A stretch of DNA of 64,000 nt, from positions 85,374,001-85,438,000 of the forward strand of contig OX597821.1 of assembly GCA_951406725.2 (NCBI GenBank). The letters are read 5' to 3'. Positions within the stretch are counted from its first letter, which is position 1. The number at the start of each line of letters is the position of its first letter. The translations under genes and the position numbers were made by a program. Positions 45,364 through 64,000 of this stretch are shown here, in pieces. A model generated the notes under the pieces. It searched no databases and was not told the origin of the DNA. It saw nothing but the letters and a program-made list of their open reading frames with translations. Source of the DNA: Octopus vulgaris (taxonomy: Eukaryota).

Positions 45364-45911
45364 TGTGTGTGTGTGTGCGTGTGTGTGTGTGTGTGTGTGT
45401 TTGTGTATGTATGTATTTTCTGAATAAACAAGATTTTAACTCATTTTATTAATCCATTCATTGTTTAATTTTCTTCAAGCAGATGTAATCATTTCATCTT
45501 TTATTCAAACATCATATATCCAGAACTACATCCCAGTTCTCTCCTCCCCACTCTCTCTCACGCGCGAGGTTTTTAATGAACATAGGCGGATTATAATTTG
45601 AGAGATTTATATTTAGTTGCTCCTTGTAGTTAGTATCTCCAGGGTGCATAATACAGGGATAAGGAGGTTTCTCTTTGTCGTGTTGCTACTTCTTCGCATC
45701 GACGGATCACAACCCTTCTACTACATGCATGTGATTAGAATATCGAAGAAGAGAACGGCAAAACAGATTGTTCAAGCCGAGCTAATCGCCGAAGGACTTC
45801 GGAATAAATAAAAAATGATACGTTTGGAGAATATCCGTAGTTTCAGTTGGTTACGCTAATGACTTGCTTCTGAATCCAACAGGAAAGTATAGAATGATGA
45901 TGATGATAATG

Positions 45912-46037
45912 AAATTATTGTATACAGTGCTCAGGTGCACCACAACTTGTCAGAAAGTGCGTATAAAGTATATGCAGTAATGTACAAAAGCCTGGAAAGC
46001 GAACAATGTATGAGTCAGATACATGCTTGTGTGTGTA
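45912..46037 (-). mobile_element. CR1-like LINE 3' UTR fragment
   Basis: Near-identical to 54481-54607. Confidence 0.8.
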
Positions 46038-46731
46038 TAATGACAGCAGACTTTTGAGTGGACCCTATGGGGGAAATGCTTGAGCACTCTATCCCAATGA
46101 CCCTCCCAGAAATATTGGATGGAGAAGAGGATGGACGGAATGTTACTATTTCTCGTACGTCAAATATAAGCGTAGAGGTTCCCGTCTTAGCTTGTAGAGC
46201 CATTTGTATGTGTAAACGTGGCAATTGAACAAGTAATCTCCCTTTATTTGATTTTAAAGCTTATTTGACTTCTTAGTGATTTGTGTTTGGTTTACATGTA
46301 TCATTAATTCCTTTAGTCTTATGATAAGATAGCATAGAGCACAACTTAGTGTCATGTCATGCAGCATGGGAGTATGTAGATAAAGTTAGTCCAAGAACCG
46401 AACCTTCGATCTTATGACCATAAACCCGGTATCCTAACAACGAGATCGCATGGCTTCACGCGTGCGCAAATTATGAATATCATTACATTTTTATGATATC
46501 GTGAATGAGGATTTTTTCCCGTTTTTTGTTTGTTTGTTTCATAATTAATTAAGAAAGGTAGTACCATGACCCCTTTCAGGGGCCTCTGATATTTGAAGGA
46601 AGGAGAGAGCGGACGGTATCCTCAAACCATAGACTTAACACGAATGTTTGCATCAAGTGAGAGCTAATGGTGTTAAACCGGGCGACGGAATAAGTCTGAG
46701 TGGCCCTGACAGGATATGAACGTAGAGCGCA

Positions 46732-46815
46732 CAGAATCGGAATCTTATTTCTTTTTTGCAGGCTCTCCGGGATCGAGACCAGCGCCAGCAAAAAAGAAAT
46801 AAGATACCGATTTTG
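46732..46815. ncRNA. Candidate pre-miRNA-like hairpin (32-bp stem, 20-nt loop)
   Basis: cagaatcggaatcttatttcttttttgcaggc / gccagcaaaaaagaaataagataccgattttg pair with 2 mismatches and 1 G-U. Confidence 0.35.
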
Positions 46816-46845
46816 AGACACTGCATCTTCTTCGTGACTCAGCAA

Positions 46846-46846
<1 letters not shown>

Positions 46847-46905
<59 letters not shown>
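46847..46905. repeat. (TA)n(GA)n microsatellite
   Basis: Directly visible. Confidence 0.95.
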
Positions 46906-46909
<4 letters not shown>

Positions 46910-47438
46910 GAAAAATAAAGGGGTATATCATGACCGATTGGTTTGGAGATTAATAAGGGCTACAATACCCCCGAATAAAATGTTGCAGGTTACTGGATGT
47001 TTTCAAATAGTGTAAAGTATTGTTTCAATAACTTCTATTTTAAAATACAGATCATGAATAAAGATTAGAAGTAAAGAAAACAATTTTGATTCTGACAAAA
47101 AAAGACCCCTTAATTTTCTCTATAATTCATATTATTTTGAAATCATTCAGTAGCAAAACAGCTGATCTTTTGGTATAGAGCAGAGATGGTCCTAATCTGA
47201 TAAAACTGAGGAAAAGCAATTCTCCGGCCTTGCAGATCCCGTCTTATTTTCGGACTTAGTGTATCTCTAATATTATTTAGAAAGATCTTCTATTTTTAGA
47301 TGGTTGAGTGTGATTTGAGGGAGATTTCTCTGATGTTTTGACTCCTCCATGGATTCCTATAAAAGTGGTGAATATATAAAGTAAACAAAAATTGAATTTT
47401 AACAATTAGTAAGAATTGAGAGTTATTTCCCTTGGACC

Positions 47439-47476
47439 ACTACGCTTTGATCTTAGCCAAAAGGCTGGGAAGTGAT
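47439..47476 (-). pseudogene. U2: 3'-truncated U2 snRNA retropseudogene (first ~38 nt)
   Basis: Reverse complement ATCACTTCCCAGCCTTTTGGCTAAGATCAAAGCGTAGT vs U2 5' end ATCGCTTCTCGGCCTTTTGGCTAAGATCAA(A)GTGTAGT; flanked by an 18-bp direct repeat (47424-47441 and 47477-47494, 2 mismatches). Confidence 0.9.
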
Positions 47477-49461
47477 TTTTTCCTTTGGACCACTCTGAGA
47501 ACCACGGCTATCTCTTGAGCGCGAGTGTGATATAGTAGCACATGCTAGGTTTTTCCTAATTGTTATTCAACAGACATGGGCACTTTCAGCTCTCCTATTC
47601 TTGATCTAGCTGCCAGATATAACACCTGAAGGGAGAGAGAGAAAGCGTGAGTAGAGCGGAACGTGAAATAAAGTGCCTTGCAAGACTACAACTTGCTTCC
47701 TAATCCAGAAATCGAAGCCACGTGAGCTCAATGCATTAACCATTAAGCTACATATATTTACTAGACCACTGAATATTTACATCTTTGTTTTGCAAACTAT
47801 TACATTTTATAGATGCTTATTATTATTATTTATTTCAATGAAAAGTTTACTTTTCCGGAGAACTTAATTTTAACCCAGGCACTAATTTCTTTAGAGGAAG
47901 AGCATAATCAAATTAGTCATCTGTTAAGGCATAGCCGTTCCTGGTTATTACTTTCAGATAGTATTTAAATTAACAGGTATTGTTTGGTGTATTGCATGAT
48001 CGAGCTCAGGTGTGTTTCTAGAGAATTACTAGTCATATGCAACTACTGTAACAGAACAAAAAAAAATTGTGGTTATTGGACATTCCGCTACAGCGACATT
48101 TTTTATTAGCTCTTTTAAATTGATATTTTTGCCGACGTTCTCCTAATACCGAAGTTTCAATTCGCAATTAAAGCTTAGATATTTTACATTGGCAATTTAT
48201 TTTAAAAAAAAGTGAAATCCTTACAACTTATTTCTCTTTTTAAAAAGCTCAACCAACCAACCATTTATTCATTCATCCATCCATCCATCCGGCTTCTTCG
48301 CTCTCTATTCCTGGAATAGTCGTGAAGATCGCGTCACAAGACACCTGTATAGAATCCTATCAGAAGGAACTATCATTAGACTTTCCTTCCCAATCATTAA
48401 TGAGCCCGCATAAGGGCTCTGGAACATGCATCCCTTGTGATTTCACTTCACGCCTCCCAGAACAAATTCTAGGCTTATTGCTGGTTGTACCGGGGTTGCG
48501 TGGAAGAGGCTGCTACACAGTTTTTGAACGGATCTTTCTGTTTTCTTGGTATTAATAATTACATTTTAGATTTCCTTTTTTTACAGTTCTCCAAATCTTC
48601 CTCTCTATATATTTTCAAAATAGAGACACGATAACCAGTATATCAGATAACCTCTTTGAATGAGATTCTCAGCTGTTGTCTATAAAACAGTCATTACTAT
48701 AAACTTAGATGTAATCTTGGTTCTTATTTACCTGAAATTATCTCCCCTTCTTCTTCTTGAGCCTTATTAACAATTACGAAATTTTAGTTTGCTTCGAACT
48801 CCCTTGAAATTAATTATCCAAAGTCATGCCATTGACTTATTTGAATTATTTCCCTTAGTTCATTCTATTTCTAATTATACAAGTTATACTGACCAATAAA
48901 ATTCTGTAACTCTTGTTTGTATATATAAAAATCTGTGTATCATACTTAGAGTAGATACATGGTTGAAAGCTTAATTATCTGTGGTAGTCGTCTTGAGATA
49001 TCTCTTGAAGATGTACAGTGTTTAAAAAACACAAAACAATATCAGAAGATGAAAATCGTCGAGTTGCGATGTTAGCATTGGTAAATGTATATTTCTGCCT
49101 CTTTGGGGTTTGTCTGTAGCTAGAATATACTGGCAACCACATGTTAAGACCAAAATCTGCCAATACTAATGTAGTAAAACAGTGATTGAAAAATTATCGA
49201 TGTTACAATTAGCTCACGGATTGATAGGTTCAGTTAGATTGTATTATGCTGATGCGGTCTAACAGACTGAAACATGTCTAGAGTTGTCCTGGTACTTTTT
49301 GGTGATCTCAGACCCATTAAAAAATTTCCATTAAAAAATTGGGTCATCTCCCCACTAAAATATTGAGTTTATGTGGCGACAAGAGATTAAATTAAAAGAG
49401 TTAGATCCTTTTGATTCAATACTTCAACACATTGTTGACTTTTGGCCTCCTCAATTGGCAC

Positions 49462-49580
49462 GGTATGATTTATTATAAAAATGTTATCAGATTCAATAAA
49501 ATGTTTAATTTTTTCAGTTTTGTATGATTTGTTTTAAAAATATTATCAGATTCAATAAGACGTTTAATCTTTTCGATTTT
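49462..49580. repeat. Two-copy ~60-bp tandem duplication
   Basis: gtatgattt...aaaaatRttatcagattcaataa...gtttaat repeated. Confidence 0.8.
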
Positions 49581-50000
49581 CATGTTTATTTATATTTCTT
49601 TTTTTTGTTTTATTGAGAGTTAAGCAATTTTTTTAGTTGGGGGAAATAACTCAATTTTTTTAACGGGGGTGAGAAAACCAAAGTGTACTGTTGTCGCTTG
49701 CCTATAAATTAAGACCAGGTTGTGCTACATCTAAATATGTAAAATAACTTTGCAAAATTAATTTCCTGAAACTATTTCCTCTTTACTAATAAATGCCACA
49801 AGGTTTTTAATTTTTTTCTCCTAAGAATTTGGTATTTTCAATCAATTAAATTTTTCTTTTCATACTGCATTTCAGTACATTGCTGCTATTTCTTCACCTA
49901 AAATTTTAAGTAAACTATTTTCTTTGCAGTTAGTAACTGGTGTACACCTTTGTGGGTTTACTGTTTGAGTTGACATCATTCAATATTATGTATTTCATAA

Positions 50001-50215
50001 AGCGGCAAGCTGGCAGAAACGTTAGCATGCTTGGTGAAATGTTTAATGGTATTTCGGCTGTCTTTACGTTCTGAGTTCAAATTCTACTAAGGTCGACTTT
50101 GCCTTTCATCCTCTCAGGGTTGATAAATGAAGTACCTGCTGCATACTGGGGTTGATCAAATCGACTGGCTCCTTCCTCCAAAATTTCAGGCCTTGTGCCT
50201 AGAGTAGAAAAGAAT
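50001..50215 (+). mobile_element. SINE (Meta-domain-like family)
   Basis: gcctttcatcctctcagggttgataaatgaagtacc core; TSD tatgtatttcata at 49987-49999 and 50215-50227. Confidence 0.9.
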
Positions 50216-50270
50216 ATGTATTTCATACTTCTGAAATTTCAGTCATAAGTATGGAAATACTCTAAAAAAT

Positions 50271-50474
50271 ATTCTCTTCTACGGCCTGGAATTTTGTGGG
50301 AGGGGACTAGTTGATTAGATCAACCCCAGTACGCAACTGGTACTTAATTTATTGACCCTGAAAGGATGAAAGGCAAAGTTGACCTTGGCAAAATTTGAAC
50401 TCAGAACGTAAAGACAGACGAAATACTGCTAAGCATTTCGCCCAGCATGCTAATGATTCTGCCAGCTCACCGCC
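50271..50474 (-). mobile_element. SINE (Meta-domain-like family), tail-to-tail with the previous copy
   Basis: Reverse complement homologue of 50001-50215. Confidence 0.9.
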
Positions 50475-51042
50475 TTTTCTGCCTTACTCTAAGAAAATTG
50501 ATGGTGGTTATTTTATATTAATTCCTGAGATGGAAAAATATTGTTATTTACCCATAGGTGCCATCATGGCTGTGTGGTTAAGAAGTTTGCTTCCCAGCCT
50601 CATAGCATGACATCTTGGGCAAGTGTTTTCTGCTATAGTCCTGTTTTTCTACCATTGTTTACAAAGACGTATTCATATACGAAATGTCATGACTTTCAGT
50701 GCTGGCTTTAAGTTCCTATAGAATATCTGTGGAAATAACTTTAAAAAGTGATATGTATATATGTGTGTGTGTGTCCTTGTCTTCAGATTGTGTGATAGTT
50801 GTAAATATGTACTGCTCTTAATACATGTGGAGTCATTCATTTCCAATATTCTGTGAAAGCATGTCGGGCCAATGGAGAATTATAGCCTGGCTTGGAAACA
50901 GGTGAGGGTTGATGAGAGAAAGTGCATCTGGCCATGTGAACTTCATCCAAACCATTCAAGCACAGACATTAAAACAACGATGGTGATGGTATACTGATGT
51001 ATTCAAACTAATGTCTTTACACTGATTGTTACAGTGTTTTAG

Positions 51043-51263
51043 CTGATGGGAAAATGTCCTTGTTTTGGACATCTAATCAGAGAATATCTCTGGTATGGAC
51101 AGCATAATGAGAACAATCTAGCTGCGTTGATTTAACAAAGTCTGCAGTTTAAAATAACAAAAGCTCTGCTGAATACAACAAACATCTGAATAAGACTGGA
51201 GAGAACAATGGCCAAAACATGGTGACTTAAAGAAGCAAGATGAGAATAGTTTTGGAGATACCA
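51043..51263 (+). other. Candidate 5' exon containing short ORF MGKCPCFGHLIREYLWYGQHNENNLAALI (51046-51135)
   Basis: Branch-like ctaat at ~51008, acceptor tgttttAG|, donor cca|GTGAGT; unique sequence between repeats. Confidence 0.4.
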
Positions 51264-51289
51264 GTGAGTTATAATTGCTTCACATTTAG

Positions 51290-51492
51290 GCAGAAGGGCA
51301 GCAACTTTCGGGGAAATGGTTAGTTATTTACATCAACCCCTGTACTTAATTGATACACTACTTTGTCAACCCCAGAGGTATGAAAGGTAAAGTTAACTCT
51401 GGTGAGATTTGAACTCAGAGTATAGAGAGTGATGACTAAATACTAAGTACTGCATTTTGTTTGCTGCACTAACAATTCTGCCAATCCACTGC
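51290..51492 (-). mobile_element. Diverged SINE (Meta-domain-like family)
   Basis: tgaaaggtaaagttaactctggtgagatttgaactcaga...ctaacaattctgcca. Confidence 0.7.
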
Positions 51493-51756
51493 TCTGTATC
51501 AATATGTAACAATGATTCATGTTTGTTGTTGTTTAGTACCTGGTCATCCTTCATTAAAAGTCCTTTGATGCATGGCCTCCCAGCTGTGACTCTCTTATCT
51601 CACTGTTTATTTGGGATAATCTTGCTTAATTCGTCCTTTCTCTTTTAAATCTTTTGTAACTACATTTCACTCTAATGAATCACTCCCACTGTGTGTTACC
51701 ATTAAACATCATAATGCTTTAAAATTGAAAATATTGTATTATTAAGCTCAAGGTGT

Positions 51757-52043
51757 GTGGAGGCACATGGCCTAGTGGTTAGAGCAGCGGACTCACGGTC
51801 GAGGGATTGCGGGTTCAAATCTCAGACCGGGCAATGTGTGTGTTTATAAGCGAAACACCTGAGCTCCATGTGGCTCTGGCAGAAGGTAATGGCGAACTTC
51901 TGCTGACTCTTTCACCACAAATTTCTCTCACTCTTTCTTCCTGCGATGGACTGGTGTCCTGTCCAGGTGGGGAACCTATATGCCAAGGAAACCGAGAAAC
52001 CAGCCCTATGAGCCAGGCATGGCTTGAGAAGGAACAAACAAAC
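51757..52043 (+). mobile_element. tRNA-derived SINE with V-domain-like core and (AAAC)n tail
   Basis: tggcctagtggttagagc A box, gggttcaaatc B box, gcgatggactggtgtcctgtccagg motif. Confidence 0.85.
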
Positions 52044-52053
52044 TCAAAGTGCA

Positions 52054-52262
52054 AGGTGATGAGCTGACAGAATTGTTAGCATGGTGGACAAATTGCTTAG
52101 CAGCATCATGTCTGTCTTTATATTCTGAGTTCAAATTCTACCAAGGTTGACTTTGCCTTTCAGGGTTGATAAATTAAGTACCAGTTGAGTACTGGGGTCG
52201 ATGTAATTGACTTAACCTCTCCATCAAAATTTCAGGCCTTGTGCCTATAGTAGAAAAGATTA
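52054..52262 (+). mobile_element. SINE (Meta-domain-like family)
   Basis: Homologous to 50001-50215. Confidence 0.85.
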
Positions 52263-52504
52263 TTAAACTTGAAGTAGTTTCAAACAGGTTCTTGTCAAAA
52301 GGTCATTTGAAGTTGATTTGGTTGCTATTTCTAGCAGGTTGAGTGACAATGGTTACCTCACTGGATCAAGATGCTGGAAGTAAGTGCAGTTAAACTTTCT
52401 GATATTTTGCAGTTAATTGAAATTAGCTGGGAAATCCACCTGTTTACATGCTATGATTTTCATTTGTCTGCTAAAGTCTGATTTGACTAAGTCTTTTATT
52501 TCAG

Positions 52505-52525
52505 CAGAAATTCAATACAAAAATT
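52505..52525 (+). other. Candidate 21-nt (or 18-nt, NAGNAG) 5'UTR micro-exon
   Basis: Branch point tgactaa at ~52484, acceptor tcttttatttCAG|CAG, donor att|GTAAGT. Confidence 0.6.
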
Positions 52526-52768
52526 GTAAGTGAATATTCTTTAAGTATTTAGCAATTAATATTGTATGATTATAATAATTCTTCATTTACATACAAAAGC
52601 ACCGATTGAAACCGTAAAATTAAATTTCTAAAAATGTAAATAATTGATTTGCAATTAATCTCAGATAATTAATGCAATATTTATGAATTCTGTTACTTTT
52701 ATGTCAGATTAAAATGCCAAATTACTGACCTGTTATCTCATAAATTTTAATTTAATTTTCTTCCAGAG

Positions 52769-52945
52769 ATGTCTAATGAATATCAGGCAGAGAAGACAGA
52801 CTTGCTTATCTCCTACAACACAATTGCTTCTGTTGCAGTTGTGGGTGTTTTGATGTTTTTGGCCATAACATATTTCTATTGGGAATATTGGTATGAAAGA
52901 CATCATTTGGAAACTGCCAACATGTGTGTTTGCCAGAAGTCATAA
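52769..52945 (+). CDS. Candidate 58-aa single-pass membrane micropeptide MSNEYQAEKTDLLISYNTIASVAVVGVLMFLAITYFYWEYWYERHHLETANMCVCQKS
   Basis: Strong acceptor taattttcttcCAG| at 52766 with ATG 2 nt downstream. Clear ~20-aa TM (IASVAVVGVLMFLAITYFYW) with aromatic boundary and C-terminal CVC. AATAAA at 52945-52950. Non-repetitive sequence. Confidence 0.65.
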   Translation: MSNEYQAEKTDLLISYNTIASVAVVGVLMFLAITYFYWEYWYERHHLETANMCVCQKS

Positions 52946-53050
52946 ATAAAAGTCTCAAAGCATCTCAAAGTTGAACCCTGTGCTGTCAACCTATGGTAAT
53001 GATCACCTGAAACTAATATTTTTGTTTTTTACCATCACATCAACACACGG

Positions 53051-53350
53051 ACATTATTTGAACAGTTAAACATTATTTGAACAGTTAAAAGCACCATCTG
53101 ACATTATTTGAACAGTTAAAAACACCATCCGAGCGTGGCCGTTCGCCAACCTCGTCTGGCATCTGTGTCGGCGGCACATAAAAAGCACCCACTACACTCA
53201 CGGAGAGGTTGGCGTTAGGAAGGGCATCCAGCCGTAGAAACACTGCCAGATCTGACTGGGCCTGATGCAGCCTTCGGACTTCCCAGACCCCAGTTGAACC
53301 GTCCAACCCATGCTAGGATGGAAAGCGGACGTTAAACAACGACGATGATG
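53051..53350 (+). mobile_element. RTE-type 3' fragment (53120-53350) preceded by a triplicated 19-20 bp junction sequence
   Basis: acattatttgaacagttaa x3 at 53051-53119, then the family sequence ending aaacaacgacgatgatg. Confidence 0.85.
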
Positions 53351-53496
53351 AAAAGCAGTGCTTCCAATGAGTTCCTAATTTTTTTTATGGAGTTATAAAT
53401 ATCCCAGGCCCAGAGACAATTCCAGTGATCTACTATTATCTAGACTGGAGCTGATTAAGTGAAATGGCCAAATTGTTGGAGCATCAGCCTCATGCT

Positions 53497-54020
53497 AAGG
53501 TGGTGGACTGGCAGAATTGTTTGCAAGCTGGATGAAATACTCAGTAGCATTTCATATGTCTTTACATTCTGAGTTCAAATGCCACCGAGATTAACTTCAC
53601 CATTCATCCTTTCAAGGCTGATGACGTAAGTACGAATTAAGCATTTAGATCAATGTAATCAACTAGCCCCGCTCCAGACCAAATTTCAGGCCTTGTGCCT
53701 ATAAAAGAAAGGATTATCTGAACTGGACCTCACGTCCGTGTTAAAGACTTTACACTGTTCAACATGTCATTATCAGGAACTGATCTTGTGCCAAAGACCA
53801 GATACCACACACCATGCCTTTATCATCGCCAGCTATGTTGTTGGATTGACAGAATCCTCAGAGCAATGGACAAAATGCCTTGTAGTATTTGTTCTGACTC
53901 TATTGTGTTTTGAGTTCAAATCCCACAGAGGCCAACTCTGTCATTTTGCAGGTTGATATAATAGAATAACATTCATCCCTAAAGGTTGCAGACCTTGTGC
54001 TTGAATCAGAAACAATTATT
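53497..54020 (+). mobile_element. Two tandem diverged SINE copies (Meta-domain-like; 53497-53716 and 53835-54020)
   Basis: Both contain tgagttcaaat...gag and ccttgtgc tail motifs. Confidence 0.7.
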
Positions 54021-54480
54021 AAGATCGGATCTCTTAAGGACAATATCACATATTATTCAACGTGTCATTATCAGAACCTGATCTGTGAAACATCTCAAAA
54101 CTTGTCATCTGATATTTTACAATTTTTATGGAAAGATATAACCCCAAATCTCTTTATATTTAAAAAAATATTTTTATCATCCCCCACCCCATTCTACAAT
54201 TTGCTATATTTATATTTATTTTACAAATGTTTTGATTTACACCAAACATCATATGTAATAAATATATATTTACGTAAGAGAAGTTGCTGTATGTTGGTTA
54301 ATTTAGTTTCATGAGAATGGAAGATAGGGTCCACTGATGAGGGATGAAAAATGATGAAATATCACCATAGTTAGCAGGATAAAGGAGAGATGGATGTTAC
54401 ACAGATAAGTTATAGGGAAAGCTTGATATAGATTGAGTGCAGGGGTATAGAATATCTAATAATAATAAAAATAATAACGA

Positions 54481-61949: not shown

Positions 61950-63300
61950 ACAAATTTACACAGAGAATTTCTGATCAAGAAACTGTAGTGTTTATTAGAG
62001 ATGTGTGTGATAACGAATAAAGGAAGGGTCTGATAGAGAGTAACAAGCTAAATACAGTTTAAAAGAAGCAGGGAGAGGCAGGGCAAATAAATTCAAATAG
62101 TTAACTTAGTCAGAGGCAGAGAGTGTGAAGTACAAGAACTCAATATTTATGATGAATTTACCATGTTTGGTAGAGTGTGCAACACTCATTTAACATACCC
62201 AGAAAAAATACCCCTATAGTTCTGATAATCAAAGACTGCTGCAAAAGGTAATACTGGTAGTTACTTTTTTAGATCAGACCTCATTTGGTGTATCCAATAT
62301 CTGGCTAAACAGGTGTCTAAAACATTTTTCATTACCATGGAAAGTTCCTCTTTACCAAAGTGAATATATTTTAGGGTATGTGAAATCTATAATTTTCCAT
62401 GATCAGTTCTTCAGTATCTTTAAGTAATTAATAAACTAATTAAACTCTTCATTTATTTTCTGTGATCATAACAAACTATGATAACATTTGGTGGTATTTG
62501 TAGAAAATATTAAATTGATGGAACGGCTTCGCAAAGAATTATCAAAAACACTACAAGGTTGTCTCCCTTGGTCTGTTTGAGTGTTTTACCTGAAACTAGA
62601 GTTGTTGTCAAAGTAGAAAAATAAAAGGCAGAAAAAGAAATGTTGGAGCAAAGGTTTTATGATGTCAAAATAGTAGAGAGAATTATATAAAGTGGAATCT
62701 ACTTTGTGATTTTTACCTCAAGATCACTAACAGATTTAAAGATCCGAGAGGTGTATATAATATCCAAAAAGGTATTTCGCATTCAAGAGAATGCAGATAA
62801 GTTTCCTTTTCTTTTTTTCTTTTTTTGTATTACCCGAATGGATAAATTCTTTGATATATTTTTTATTTGTTTTTAATTTTATATATTTTTTTTTATTATT
62901 GTTAAAATCTGCAAATCAGTCCTCACATCTGGTGATCTTGCTAGAGCCAGAGGGTAAGAAAGGGTGTTAAGTATTCGTGTTATTGTGATTTTCTGTTTGG
63001 TCAAGGATTCAAGAGAGTTCTGTTGCCATTTGTTCCTGATGATTTAGCACAGATCTCTGCATCCGGAATTGGAAAGACACCACAATGTAATTAGAATAGC
63101 TGACTTATGGAGGGACAATGACGTGGTGTGTGGGTGAGTGAGTGTTGTTTTGTACTGTGTATGGAGAGTAAATTATACACAATCATAATTGAAAATAAAT
63201 AATAAAAAAGAGAGAGAGAGAGCTAGTTGTGTGAGGTTAATGGGGGAGAAAATCTGCTACAAAAATATTCGCCGGAGATCTGATGGAGATGTAATCATAT
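61950..63300 (-). mobile_element. Possible heavily degraded Penelope-like retroelement RT region
   Basis: Only scattered motif-like fragments (NLT..LSL, FLDII.TP, DNN..F..Q..G); no continuous frame. Confidence 0.3.
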
Positions 63301-64000
63301 TACACTGTGGACACAACTTCTTGGCTCCCTGGCAAAAAATGGAGAAAAAGAAACAAAACAATGTAAGATAATGAATTAATTAGTTACACAGATTTTTCAA
63401 CATAAAGAAGTATTAGGCATTTTAGGCAGCAATTGTAGACAGTATTATTGAGGGGACTTGAATCACATATCCATTGCTAGCTGGACATTTGCATTACAAA
63501 TTAATATTTAATAAATATATAGACATTTGTTAACATATAATACACCTACATGTATATCATCATCTATATTTAAGGAGTGTGGAAGAAAAGCTGTTGTAAC
63601 AACATTACAGCTGTTATTCAATAGCAATGCAAGGGGAACAGACAAATTCTATATCTGAATTTGGTAACTTCACAATGCCACAGTCAAACGTATGAATAAA
63701 TTGAAAAACTTTTATGTAAGAATGGTGAATATAACACAGCAGGATCAGAGAATGGTTTATAACATTCGCAGGAAAACATCCACTGAAAAACTAATGTAGT
63801 TAATAGAAAACTTAATGAGAATGAGATGGCTGAGTAGACATGACAATTTATTAACAGATCATAAATCAAAATTTGCTGCTGGCATTTTGTTGGGTTTCTA
63901 GATATAACACTTGTCTTACATTAACCTACCGTAACTGTTTGCAAAGAATAACAATGAGTTCATCTATTTCAAATTAGTGTCTGTCAATTTTCTTGGGTTC

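What the first reader, a model, noticed from the sequence alone, without database searches (positions are those of the whole stretch)
52484..53000. Unannotated-size 58-aa single-TM micropeptide gene with a micro-exon and C-terminal CxC
Seen: branch point, acceptor, 21-nt micro-exon and GTAAGT donor, then a 241-nt intron, a strong acceptor and an ATG 2 nt into the exon. Splicing the micro-exon creates an in-frame TAG immediately before the ATG (aatT|AG ATG), which fixes the start. The peptide has a polar N-terminus, one clean TM helix, a YFYWEYWY aromatic belt, HH and CVC-QKS-stop. It is below the ORF-track cutoff and not repeat-derived. Inference: a small membrane regulator or chaperone with a possible metal-binding or palmitoylated tail. 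Stannin/hemotin (TM + CxC) and the insect photoreceptor small TM proteins XPORT-A/B and INAF are architectural comparators only; I cannot show homology.
Basis: partly seen in the sequence, partly recalled or inferred. Interest (0 to 1): 0.72.

Follow-up and report, generated by a model that had tools for sequence, protein, structure and literature searches.

The report
Unannotated octopus membrane micropeptide gene candidate
An octopus gene missing from protein databases makes a spliced RNA whose last exon opens with a 58-codon reading frame that likely encodes a tiny one-helix membrane protein with no known relatives, though its translation is untested and its codon use looks non-coding.

Summary
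The ORF is real (52769-52945, 58 aa, single copy). In 5 of 6 probable RNA runs (4 studies, 2 organisms), contigs enter the genome exactly at the 52767 acceptor, so this is the start of a spliced exon that probably ends near AATAAA 54257.

The micro-exon story is not supported. In all five contigs the base before the acceptor is G, not the micro-exon's T, so the codon before ATG reads GAG, not TAG, and an N-terminal extension stays possible.

For a protein: its polar-helix-polar layout beats 315 of 315 neighbouring non-coding ORFs (post hoc test). Against: codon statistics look non-coding (352 of 354 coding chunks score higher), neither flank is positively charged, no homologue was found, and the only coding variant seen is non-synonymous (L47W). 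CQKS is not a farnesylation motif, and no link to XPORT, stannin/hemotin, INAF or Purriato was shown.

Verdict: about 60% a translated, lineage-restricted, tail-anchored-type micropeptide (some of that with an extra N-terminus), about 35% a lncRNA or proto-gene. Interest is modest.

The parts
45501..46750 (.). CpG-rich stretch, candidate promoter or first-exon region (inferred)
   Evidence: CpG o/e 0.8-1.07 against a regional median of 0.22; an X4 contig lies on 45598-45792 with 0 differences. Link to the ORF not shown.
48001..48500 (.). second CpG-rich stretch, alternative candidate promoter (inferred)
   Evidence: 15 CpG, o/e 0.89
   Evidence: spliced contigs carry G, not T, before 52767
52526..52766 (+). 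3' part of the intron ending at the used acceptor
   Evidence: GC 0.22; contigs of 5 probable RNA runs leave the genome here while DNA-like run X19 reads through
52767..54280 (+). spliced exon, probably terminal (about 1.5 kb, with repeats in the 3' UTR); 3' end inferred
   Evidence: contig pieces 52764/6-53146, 53287-53576, 53548-54145, 53704-54187, 54073-54223; AATAAA at 54257
52769..52945 (+). 58-codon ORF (P0001): first and longest ATG ORF of the exon
52820..52876 (+). predicted transmembrane helix, residues 18-36
   Evidence: KD19 2.23, Hessa-scale sum -0.65; single-sequence AlphaFold helix 3-56, mean pLDDT 83
52871..52894 (+). aromatic belt YFYWEYWY, residues 35-42
52925..52942 (+). C-terminal CVCQKS; not a farnesylation motif
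52945..52950 (+). AATAAA overlapping the stop codon; contigs read past it
54257..54262 (+). AATAAA, likely main poly(A) signal
   Evidence: contig pieces end at 54145, 54187 and 54223

Best explanation
A single-copy octopus gene is spliced into an exon that opens with a 58-codon ORF, which is likely translated into a lineage-restricted one-helix membrane micropeptide that would insert into the ER after translation and would act as an accessory subunit of a larger membrane protein. Shown: ORF, single copy, splicing into 52767 from an upstream exon ending in G, one uncharged 19-residue hydrophobic stretch 22 residues from the C-terminus. Inferred: (1) the upstream exons are short 5' UTR exons from the CpG-rich region 4-7 kb upstream, so the ATG at 52769 with G at -3 is the start; (2) with so short a tail the helix leaves the ribosome only at termination, so targeting would be post-translational, as for tail-anchored proteins, probably through EMC given moderate hydrophobicity and a non-basic tail; (3) the N-terminus would be cytosolic and the aromatic belt, HH and CxC luminal, where the cysteines would form disulfides rather than take lipids; (4) by analogy to XPORT-A, it would pack against a multipass client. 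Odds: translated membrane peptide starting at 52769 about 0.5; the whole chain including step 4 about 0.25.
For: Splicing: 5 of 6 probable RNA runs laid (X1, X3, X4, X7, X11; studies P1-P4; organisms A and B) have a contig that matches from 52764-52766 onward and carries 28-77 further upstream letters that do not continue the genome; X2 and DNA-like X19 read through. The ORF is the first and longest ATG ORF of the exon. Chance: of 543 comparable acceptors in 590 kb of unique flanking sequence (both strands, ours included), 16 have a first-ATG ORF of 58 codons or more, 5 of these have KD19 >= 2.0, and 3 have the ATG within 5 nt; only ours has all three features. Helix-versus-flank contrast is 3.06, above 315 of 315 non-coding ATG ORFs of 45-100 aa (maximum 2.65), and reached by 0.015% of 20,000 residue shuffles (the statistic was chosen after seeing the peptide). 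Different match starts within organism A (CAG against G) suggest at least two upstream exon ends, which fits alternative 5' UTRs. Tail-anchored definition, a single TMD within about 50 aa of the C-terminus, and EMC's preference: PMC13220792 passages. XPORT-A is a tail-anchored, EMC-inserted chaperone whose luminal His and Tyr contact Rh1: PMC10663829 passages.
Against: Codon statistics resemble non-coding ORFs. Order-2 Markov score -9.5: 352 of 354 cross-validated coding chunks and 12 of 12 neighbouring housekeeping chunks score higher, as do 247 of 351 non-coding ORFs. Synonymous-only score: 328 of 354 coding chunks higher, likelihood ratio 0.35. Against TM-matched GPCR chunks the ratio is 0.17-0.57. 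There is no positive-inside bias: the 10 residues on each side are net -1, whereas human single-pass proteins average +2.34 on the cytosolic side, so orientation is uncertain. No homologue at 31-102 aa, at 103-2000 aa or among 1.84 billion representatives, although the database holds Octopus sinensis and many molluscs (control). The only coding variant seen is non-synonymous, T52908G = L47W, in X2 and X19. X11 carries one gap of unknown position within 52765-53066. The upstream exon was not identified, and G|AG leaves the frame open. No partner is known.
Confidence: 0.5

Rival explanations
1. The transcript is a spliced lncRNA, or a young proto-gene, whose T-rich first ORF happens to encode a hydrophobic stretch. 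Any translation would be incidental and not under selection.
For: Non-coding-like codon scores. No homologues. The only coding variant is non-synonymous. No basic flank. About 12% of O. vulgaris neural transcripts were classed as lncRNA, many with TE fragments (PMC9115989 passages). T-rich DNA readily yields TM-like ORFs (PMC7005711, search listing only); 33 of 315 local non-coding ORFs reach KD19 >= 1.8.
Against: The coincidence of a clean TM architecture (0 of 315 non-coding ORFs reach it) with an ATG 2 nt behind an acceptor that is really used. No snoRNA or miRNA cargo that would explain a host lncRNA.
Confidence: 0.35
2. The exon is the membrane-anchor end of a somewhat longer protein. An upstream coding exon would join in phase 1 (G|AG = Glu), perhaps bringing a signal peptide (type I topology, CxC cytosolic and palmitoylatable). 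The micro-exon, if ever included, would then act as a poison or secreted-form switch by creating TAG.
For: All five spliced contigs give GAG before the ATG. Phase-1 junctions are typical before TM exons (established knowledge). 8 of 33 candidate G-ending donors in 45400-52740 have an in-frame upstream Met.
Against: No database protein of 103-2000 aa contains the peptide, although Octopus proteomes are held. No gene-like long ORF lies between the EHD gene end and this exon apart from reverse-transcriptase remnants. The three unique-sequence donors with an upstream Met are weak and add 6-9 residues; the other five lie in repeats. At least two different upstream exon ends are implied.
Confidence: 0.12
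3. One reading: the 21-nt micro-exon is spliced in, its TAG fixes the start, and the tail is a lipidated or metal-binding cytosolic motif as in stannin.
For: Branch-like CTAA, YAG and a perfect GTAAGT are present. HH and CxC could bind metal.
Against: 0 of 5 spliced contigs carry the micro-exon's last base before the acceptor. CQKS is called negative by 4 of 4 prenylation predictors (PMC9231725 supplement row), has a yeast enrichment factor of 0.18 (PMC10320760 supplement), and Lys at a2 is restrictive.
Confidence: 0.03

Closest known systems
Drosophila XPORT-A (tail-anchored chaperone of Rh1 and TRP) and XPORT-B
   Same: [quoted passage not shown]
   Different: No sequence similarity. XPORT homologues are described in insects and the locus is bicistronic; this exon has no second ATG ORF of 50 aa or more. 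About half the length (recalled). No client known.
Purriato (CG9034), 77-aa single-TM smORF of protostomes
   Same: Single-TM smORF peptide with alternative 5' UTRs; the family has an Octopus bimaculoides member (PMC10036370 sections 16-17).
   Different: That homologue was found by PSI-BLAST, so it should be in protein databases, whereas P0001 has no hit. No [WFY]xx[LIV] LIR core in the C-terminal tail (sequence). The alignment figure was not visible and the supplement tables hold no octopus entry.
Hemotin / Stannin
   Same: Small transmembrane smORF peptides (PMC4807881 passages); stannin has a CxC (recalled).
   Different: 88 aa; the CxC sits right at the helix end in stannin (recalled), here 17 residues beyond it at the C-terminus. 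No Pfam or sequence hit. 14-3-3 binding untested.
De novo TM micropeptides from T-rich non-genic DNA (PMC7005711, search listing only)
   Same: Short orphan ORF, hydrophobic helix, non-coding-like codon statistics.
   Different: Here the gene has a spliced structure and polar flanks cleaner than any local non-coding ORF. Age not determined.

Membership tests
Tail-anchored (type IV) membrane proteins | single TMD within about 50 aa of the C-terminus, no signal peptide | tested here: met
   helix 18-36, 22 residues follow; definition from PMC13220792. Holds only if 52769 is the start.
Tail-anchored (type IV) membrane proteins | positively charged cytosolic flank | tested here: not met
   10-residue flanks are net -1 on both sides (sequence) against +2.34 for human single-pass proteins
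Tail-anchored (type IV) membrane proteins | N-cytosol/C-lumen insertion by EMC or GET | not testable with these tools
   needs topology and knock-down assays
XPORT-A/B | sequence homology to insect XPORT proteins | tested here: not met
   no hit
XPORT-A/B | bicistronic mRNA | tested here: not met
   next longest ATG ORF in the exon is 49 aa; upstream exons unseen
XPORT-A/B | KP-x21-HxWKxW motif (recalled, from no call) | tested here: not met
   only the WxxW spacing (W38, W41) is present
XPORT-A/B | needed for rhodopsin/TRP maturation in photoreceptors | not testable with these tools
   tissues of the runs are coded; no full octopus rhodopsin was available to fold with it
Stannin/Hemotin | profile match; CxC at the membrane interface (recalled) | tested here: not met
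   Pfam gave only Cation_ATPase_C at E 0.099, below cut-off; CxC is at 53-55
Stannin/Hemotin | 14-3-3 binding, endosomal location | not testable with these tools
   PMC4807881
INAF proteins | InaF motif (family recalled as being in Pfam) | tested here: not met
   no such Pfam hit at E up to 10
Purriato | homology to the protostome family; C-terminal LIR | tested here: not met
   no database hit, no LIR core in the tail; no direct alignment to Prto was possible
CaaX prenylated proteins | C-terminal CXXX accepted by farnesyltransferase | tested here: not met
   CQKS negative in 4 of 4 predictors, enrichment 0.18, Lys at a2 restrictive; yeast data
Protein-coding smORF under selection | translation and codon-level conservation | tested here: inconclusive
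   codon scores non-coding-like, architecture protein-like; X19 differences 3 of 166 intron against 1 of 177 CDS bases, Fisher p 0.29

The most novel reading that the evidence does not exclude
An octopod-specific membrane microprotein that arose de novo from T-rich non-coding DNA, gained its own CpG promoter and splicing, and serves as a dedicated accessory subunit (XPORT- or regulin-like) of a cephalopod membrane protein, with a His/Cys tail acting as a luminal redox or copper/zinc sensor.
Probability: 0.12. Interest if true: 0.7.

Novelty: new member of a known kind. Interest (0 to 1): 0.36.

Why it matters
Single-pass micropeptides (XPORT, hemotin, Purriato, the regulins) are known regulators of large membrane proteins and are missed by annotation. 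None of the top listings of my two searches on cephalopod micropeptides dealt with an unannotated cephalopod one. A confirmed case with no relatives and non-coding-like codons would be a tractable example of de novo gene birth or fast divergence in octopus. It is still one orphan among probably many, with no partner or phenotype, so it would not by itself surprise a specialist.

Tried and rejected
Homology, all blank: Pfam, NCBIfam (one chance hit at E 0.1), 5.8-billion database near and longer, 1.84-billion representatives, ESM Atlas (best 0.78, not usable), PDB sequences (only the ErbB3 TM peptide at E 0.49), Foldseek. The single metagenome locus L043 is a chance match inside a long bacterial ORF.

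No RNA holder is listed on record; the RNA label is the tool's guess.

Parts without cover, which are not evidence: no 52525>52767 joint was listed, X3 has no cover on the micro-exon, and X3 and X4 have none at 47855-48341, where the good donor 48010 lies.

The upstream exon was not found. Repeat-derived rows crowded the joint and loose-end tables in both lay calls, and 33 candidate donors were listed but not resolved.

A host gene for a small RNA was rejected: Rfam gave only a sub-threshold U2-like copy, and no pre-miRNA-like hairpin stood out. Antisense origin from the convergent RING gene was rejected for the spliced contigs, which break at a + strand AG.

The O. vulgaris transcriptome FASTA in PMC9115989 (Additional file 2, 87 MB) and the O. 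bimaculoides one (file 6) were too large to read. They bear directly on the upstream exon and on conservation.

No complex prediction was run, since no partner is claimed. Earlier scan findings: none. My first notebook entry misread T52908G as H>Q; it is L47W.

Full report
Setting. The window is G000:C8:85374001-85438000 of a 2.8-Gb animal genome. An upstream neighbour is 100% identical over its last exon to an Octopus sinensis EH-domain protein, so this is an octopus of that group. The EHD gene (+) ends about 38 kb before the window. A RING-finger gene (minus strand, RNF220-like by recall) ends at about 63255-63326. The finding lies between them, after a 28-kb satellite. ORF lists for the interval show no other gene-like long ORF apart from reverse-transcriptase remnants (10 of the 128 listed ORF regions were run against Pfam, the rest judged by eye).

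Observation. The ORF and 700 bases around it are single copy. The helix is residues 18-36. AlphaFold from the single sequence gives one helix, 3-56, which says little.

Expression and splicing. Twenty of 24 listed runs hold part of 52300-53100; none is on record as RNA, and 16 of those 20 are guessed RNA. I laid six guessed-RNA runs and one DNA-like run. In X1, X3, X4, X7 (organism A, three studies) and X11 (organism B, a fourth study), a contig matches from 52764-52766 onward and carries 53, 77, 38, 31 and 28 further upstream letters that do not continue the genome. X2 and DNA-like X19 read through the intron. A break at the same AG in five runs and two organisms is splicing. Further pieces reach 54145-54223, just before AATAAA at 54257, so the exon is probably terminal and about 1.5 kb long; contigs cannot show strand or ends. 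CpG-rich stretches at 45.5-46.7 kb and 48.0-48.5 kb are the likely promoter region, but the link is not shown.

The micro-exon. If it were spliced in, the base before 52767 would be T. In all five contigs the match includes the G at 52766 (four with zero differences); in X11 it includes AG and in X3 CAG. The upstream exon therefore ends in G, the codon before ATG is GAG, and position -3 is a purine. Similar micro-exon-like patterns occur about 0.4 times per window by chance. X1 has a 151-base contig that reads straight through both of its splice sites. A rare isoform cannot be excluded. CAG against G within organism A suggests at least two upstream exon ends, which I read as alternative 5' UTRs (inference).

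Is the ORF coding? For: among 543 acceptors as good as this one in 590 kb of unique sequence, ours included, 16 have a first-ATG ORF of 58 codons or more, 5 of those are hydrophobic, 3 have the ATG within 5 nt, and only this one has all three features. Its helix-to-flank contrast exceeds 315 of 315 non-coding ATG ORFs and 99.98% of residue shuffles.

Against: a codon model trained on 47 GPCR and cadherin ORFs of this genome (21,936 codons) separates coding (mean +11) from non-coding (mean -5.7) 58-codon chunks and scores this ORF -9.5, below 352 of 354 coding chunks and all 12 housekeeping chunks. Synonymous-only and TM-matched versions give likelihood ratios of 0.17-0.57. Neither flank is basic. 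The only coding variant is L47W, in X2 and X19; intron against CDS divergence in X19 is 3 of 166 against 1 of 177, p 0.29. No homologue was found at any length, with a positive control showing that octopus and mollusc proteomes are held; small unannotated ORFs of other species would be missed by these searches. On balance I put translation under selection at about 0.6, including about 0.1 for an N-terminally extended form.

Mechanism. With 22 residues after the helix the peptide fits the tail-anchored definition (PMC13220792 passages), so it would be targeted after translation. Moderate hydrophobicity and a non-basic tail point to EMC and the ER (same passages; PMC10200711 seen only as a search listing). 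The default orientation puts YFYWEYWY at the luminal interface and HH and CxC in the lumen, where disulfides are likelier than lipids. Farnesylation is unlikely in either orientation: CQKS is negative in 4 of 4 predictors (PMC9231725 supplement row), had an enrichment factor of 0.18 in a yeast screen, and has a restrictive Lys at a2 (PMC10320760 supplement rows and passages). By analogy with XPORT-A, a tail-anchored, EMC-inserted chaperone whose luminal His and Tyr touch Rh1 (PMC10663829 passages), the likeliest role is an accessory helix on a multipass client. Every step after splicing is inferred, and orientation is uncertain.

Comparison. It works at most like XPORT-A, Purriato (PMC10036370 sections 16-17, passages and two supplement tables) or hemotin/stannin (PMC4807881 passages). 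It failed each sequence or motif test I could run, so I do not file it under any of them. The lncRNA rival is serious: about 12% of O. vulgaris neural transcripts were classed as lncRNA under a rule of longest ORF below 100 aa (PMC9115989 passages), a rule that would also catch a real micropeptide gene. That paper's transcriptome files could not be read and may settle the upstream exon and conservation.

Verdict. A real, spliced, unannotated octopus gene with a plausible but unproven single-helix micropeptide. The micro-exon mechanism is not supported. It is a new member of a known kind; interest 0.36.

Noticed in passing
window 17100-45400: About 28 kb of (GGAT)n-type satellite with GC skew near 0.95 lies directly upstream of the CpG-rich candidate promoter.
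   Followed up: no
window 47349-47476 (-): Degenerate U2 snRNA-like copy, 35.7 bits against a gathering score of 46, E 2.6e-4; probably a pseudogene.
   Followed up: partly
window 63255-63326 (-) and L023:1344-1697 (-): Last two coding exons of a RING-finger gene (RNF220-like by recall), tail to tail with the finding.
   Followed up: partly
L017:4626-5111 and L019:928-1647 (+): EH-domain (EHD) gene, last exon 100% identical to an Octopus sinensis protein. Further upstream, in L004-L005, exons that look like ornithine decarboxylase (recalled, not tested).
   Followed up: partly
window 53050-53115: Short tandem repeat in the 3' UTR; X19 has a 12-base insertion at 53069.
   Followed up: no
window 52908: T>G variant (L47W) shared by X2 (organism A) and X19 (organism D); Trp may be the ancestral residue.
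   Followed up: partly
window 45598-45792: Exact-match contig of run X4 in the CpG-rich stretch; possible first exon or promoter-proximal transcript.
   Followed up: no
window 49290-49690: A dispersed repeat family with at least 40 copies elsewhere in the genome; it carries one of the candidate donors (49669).
   Followed up: no
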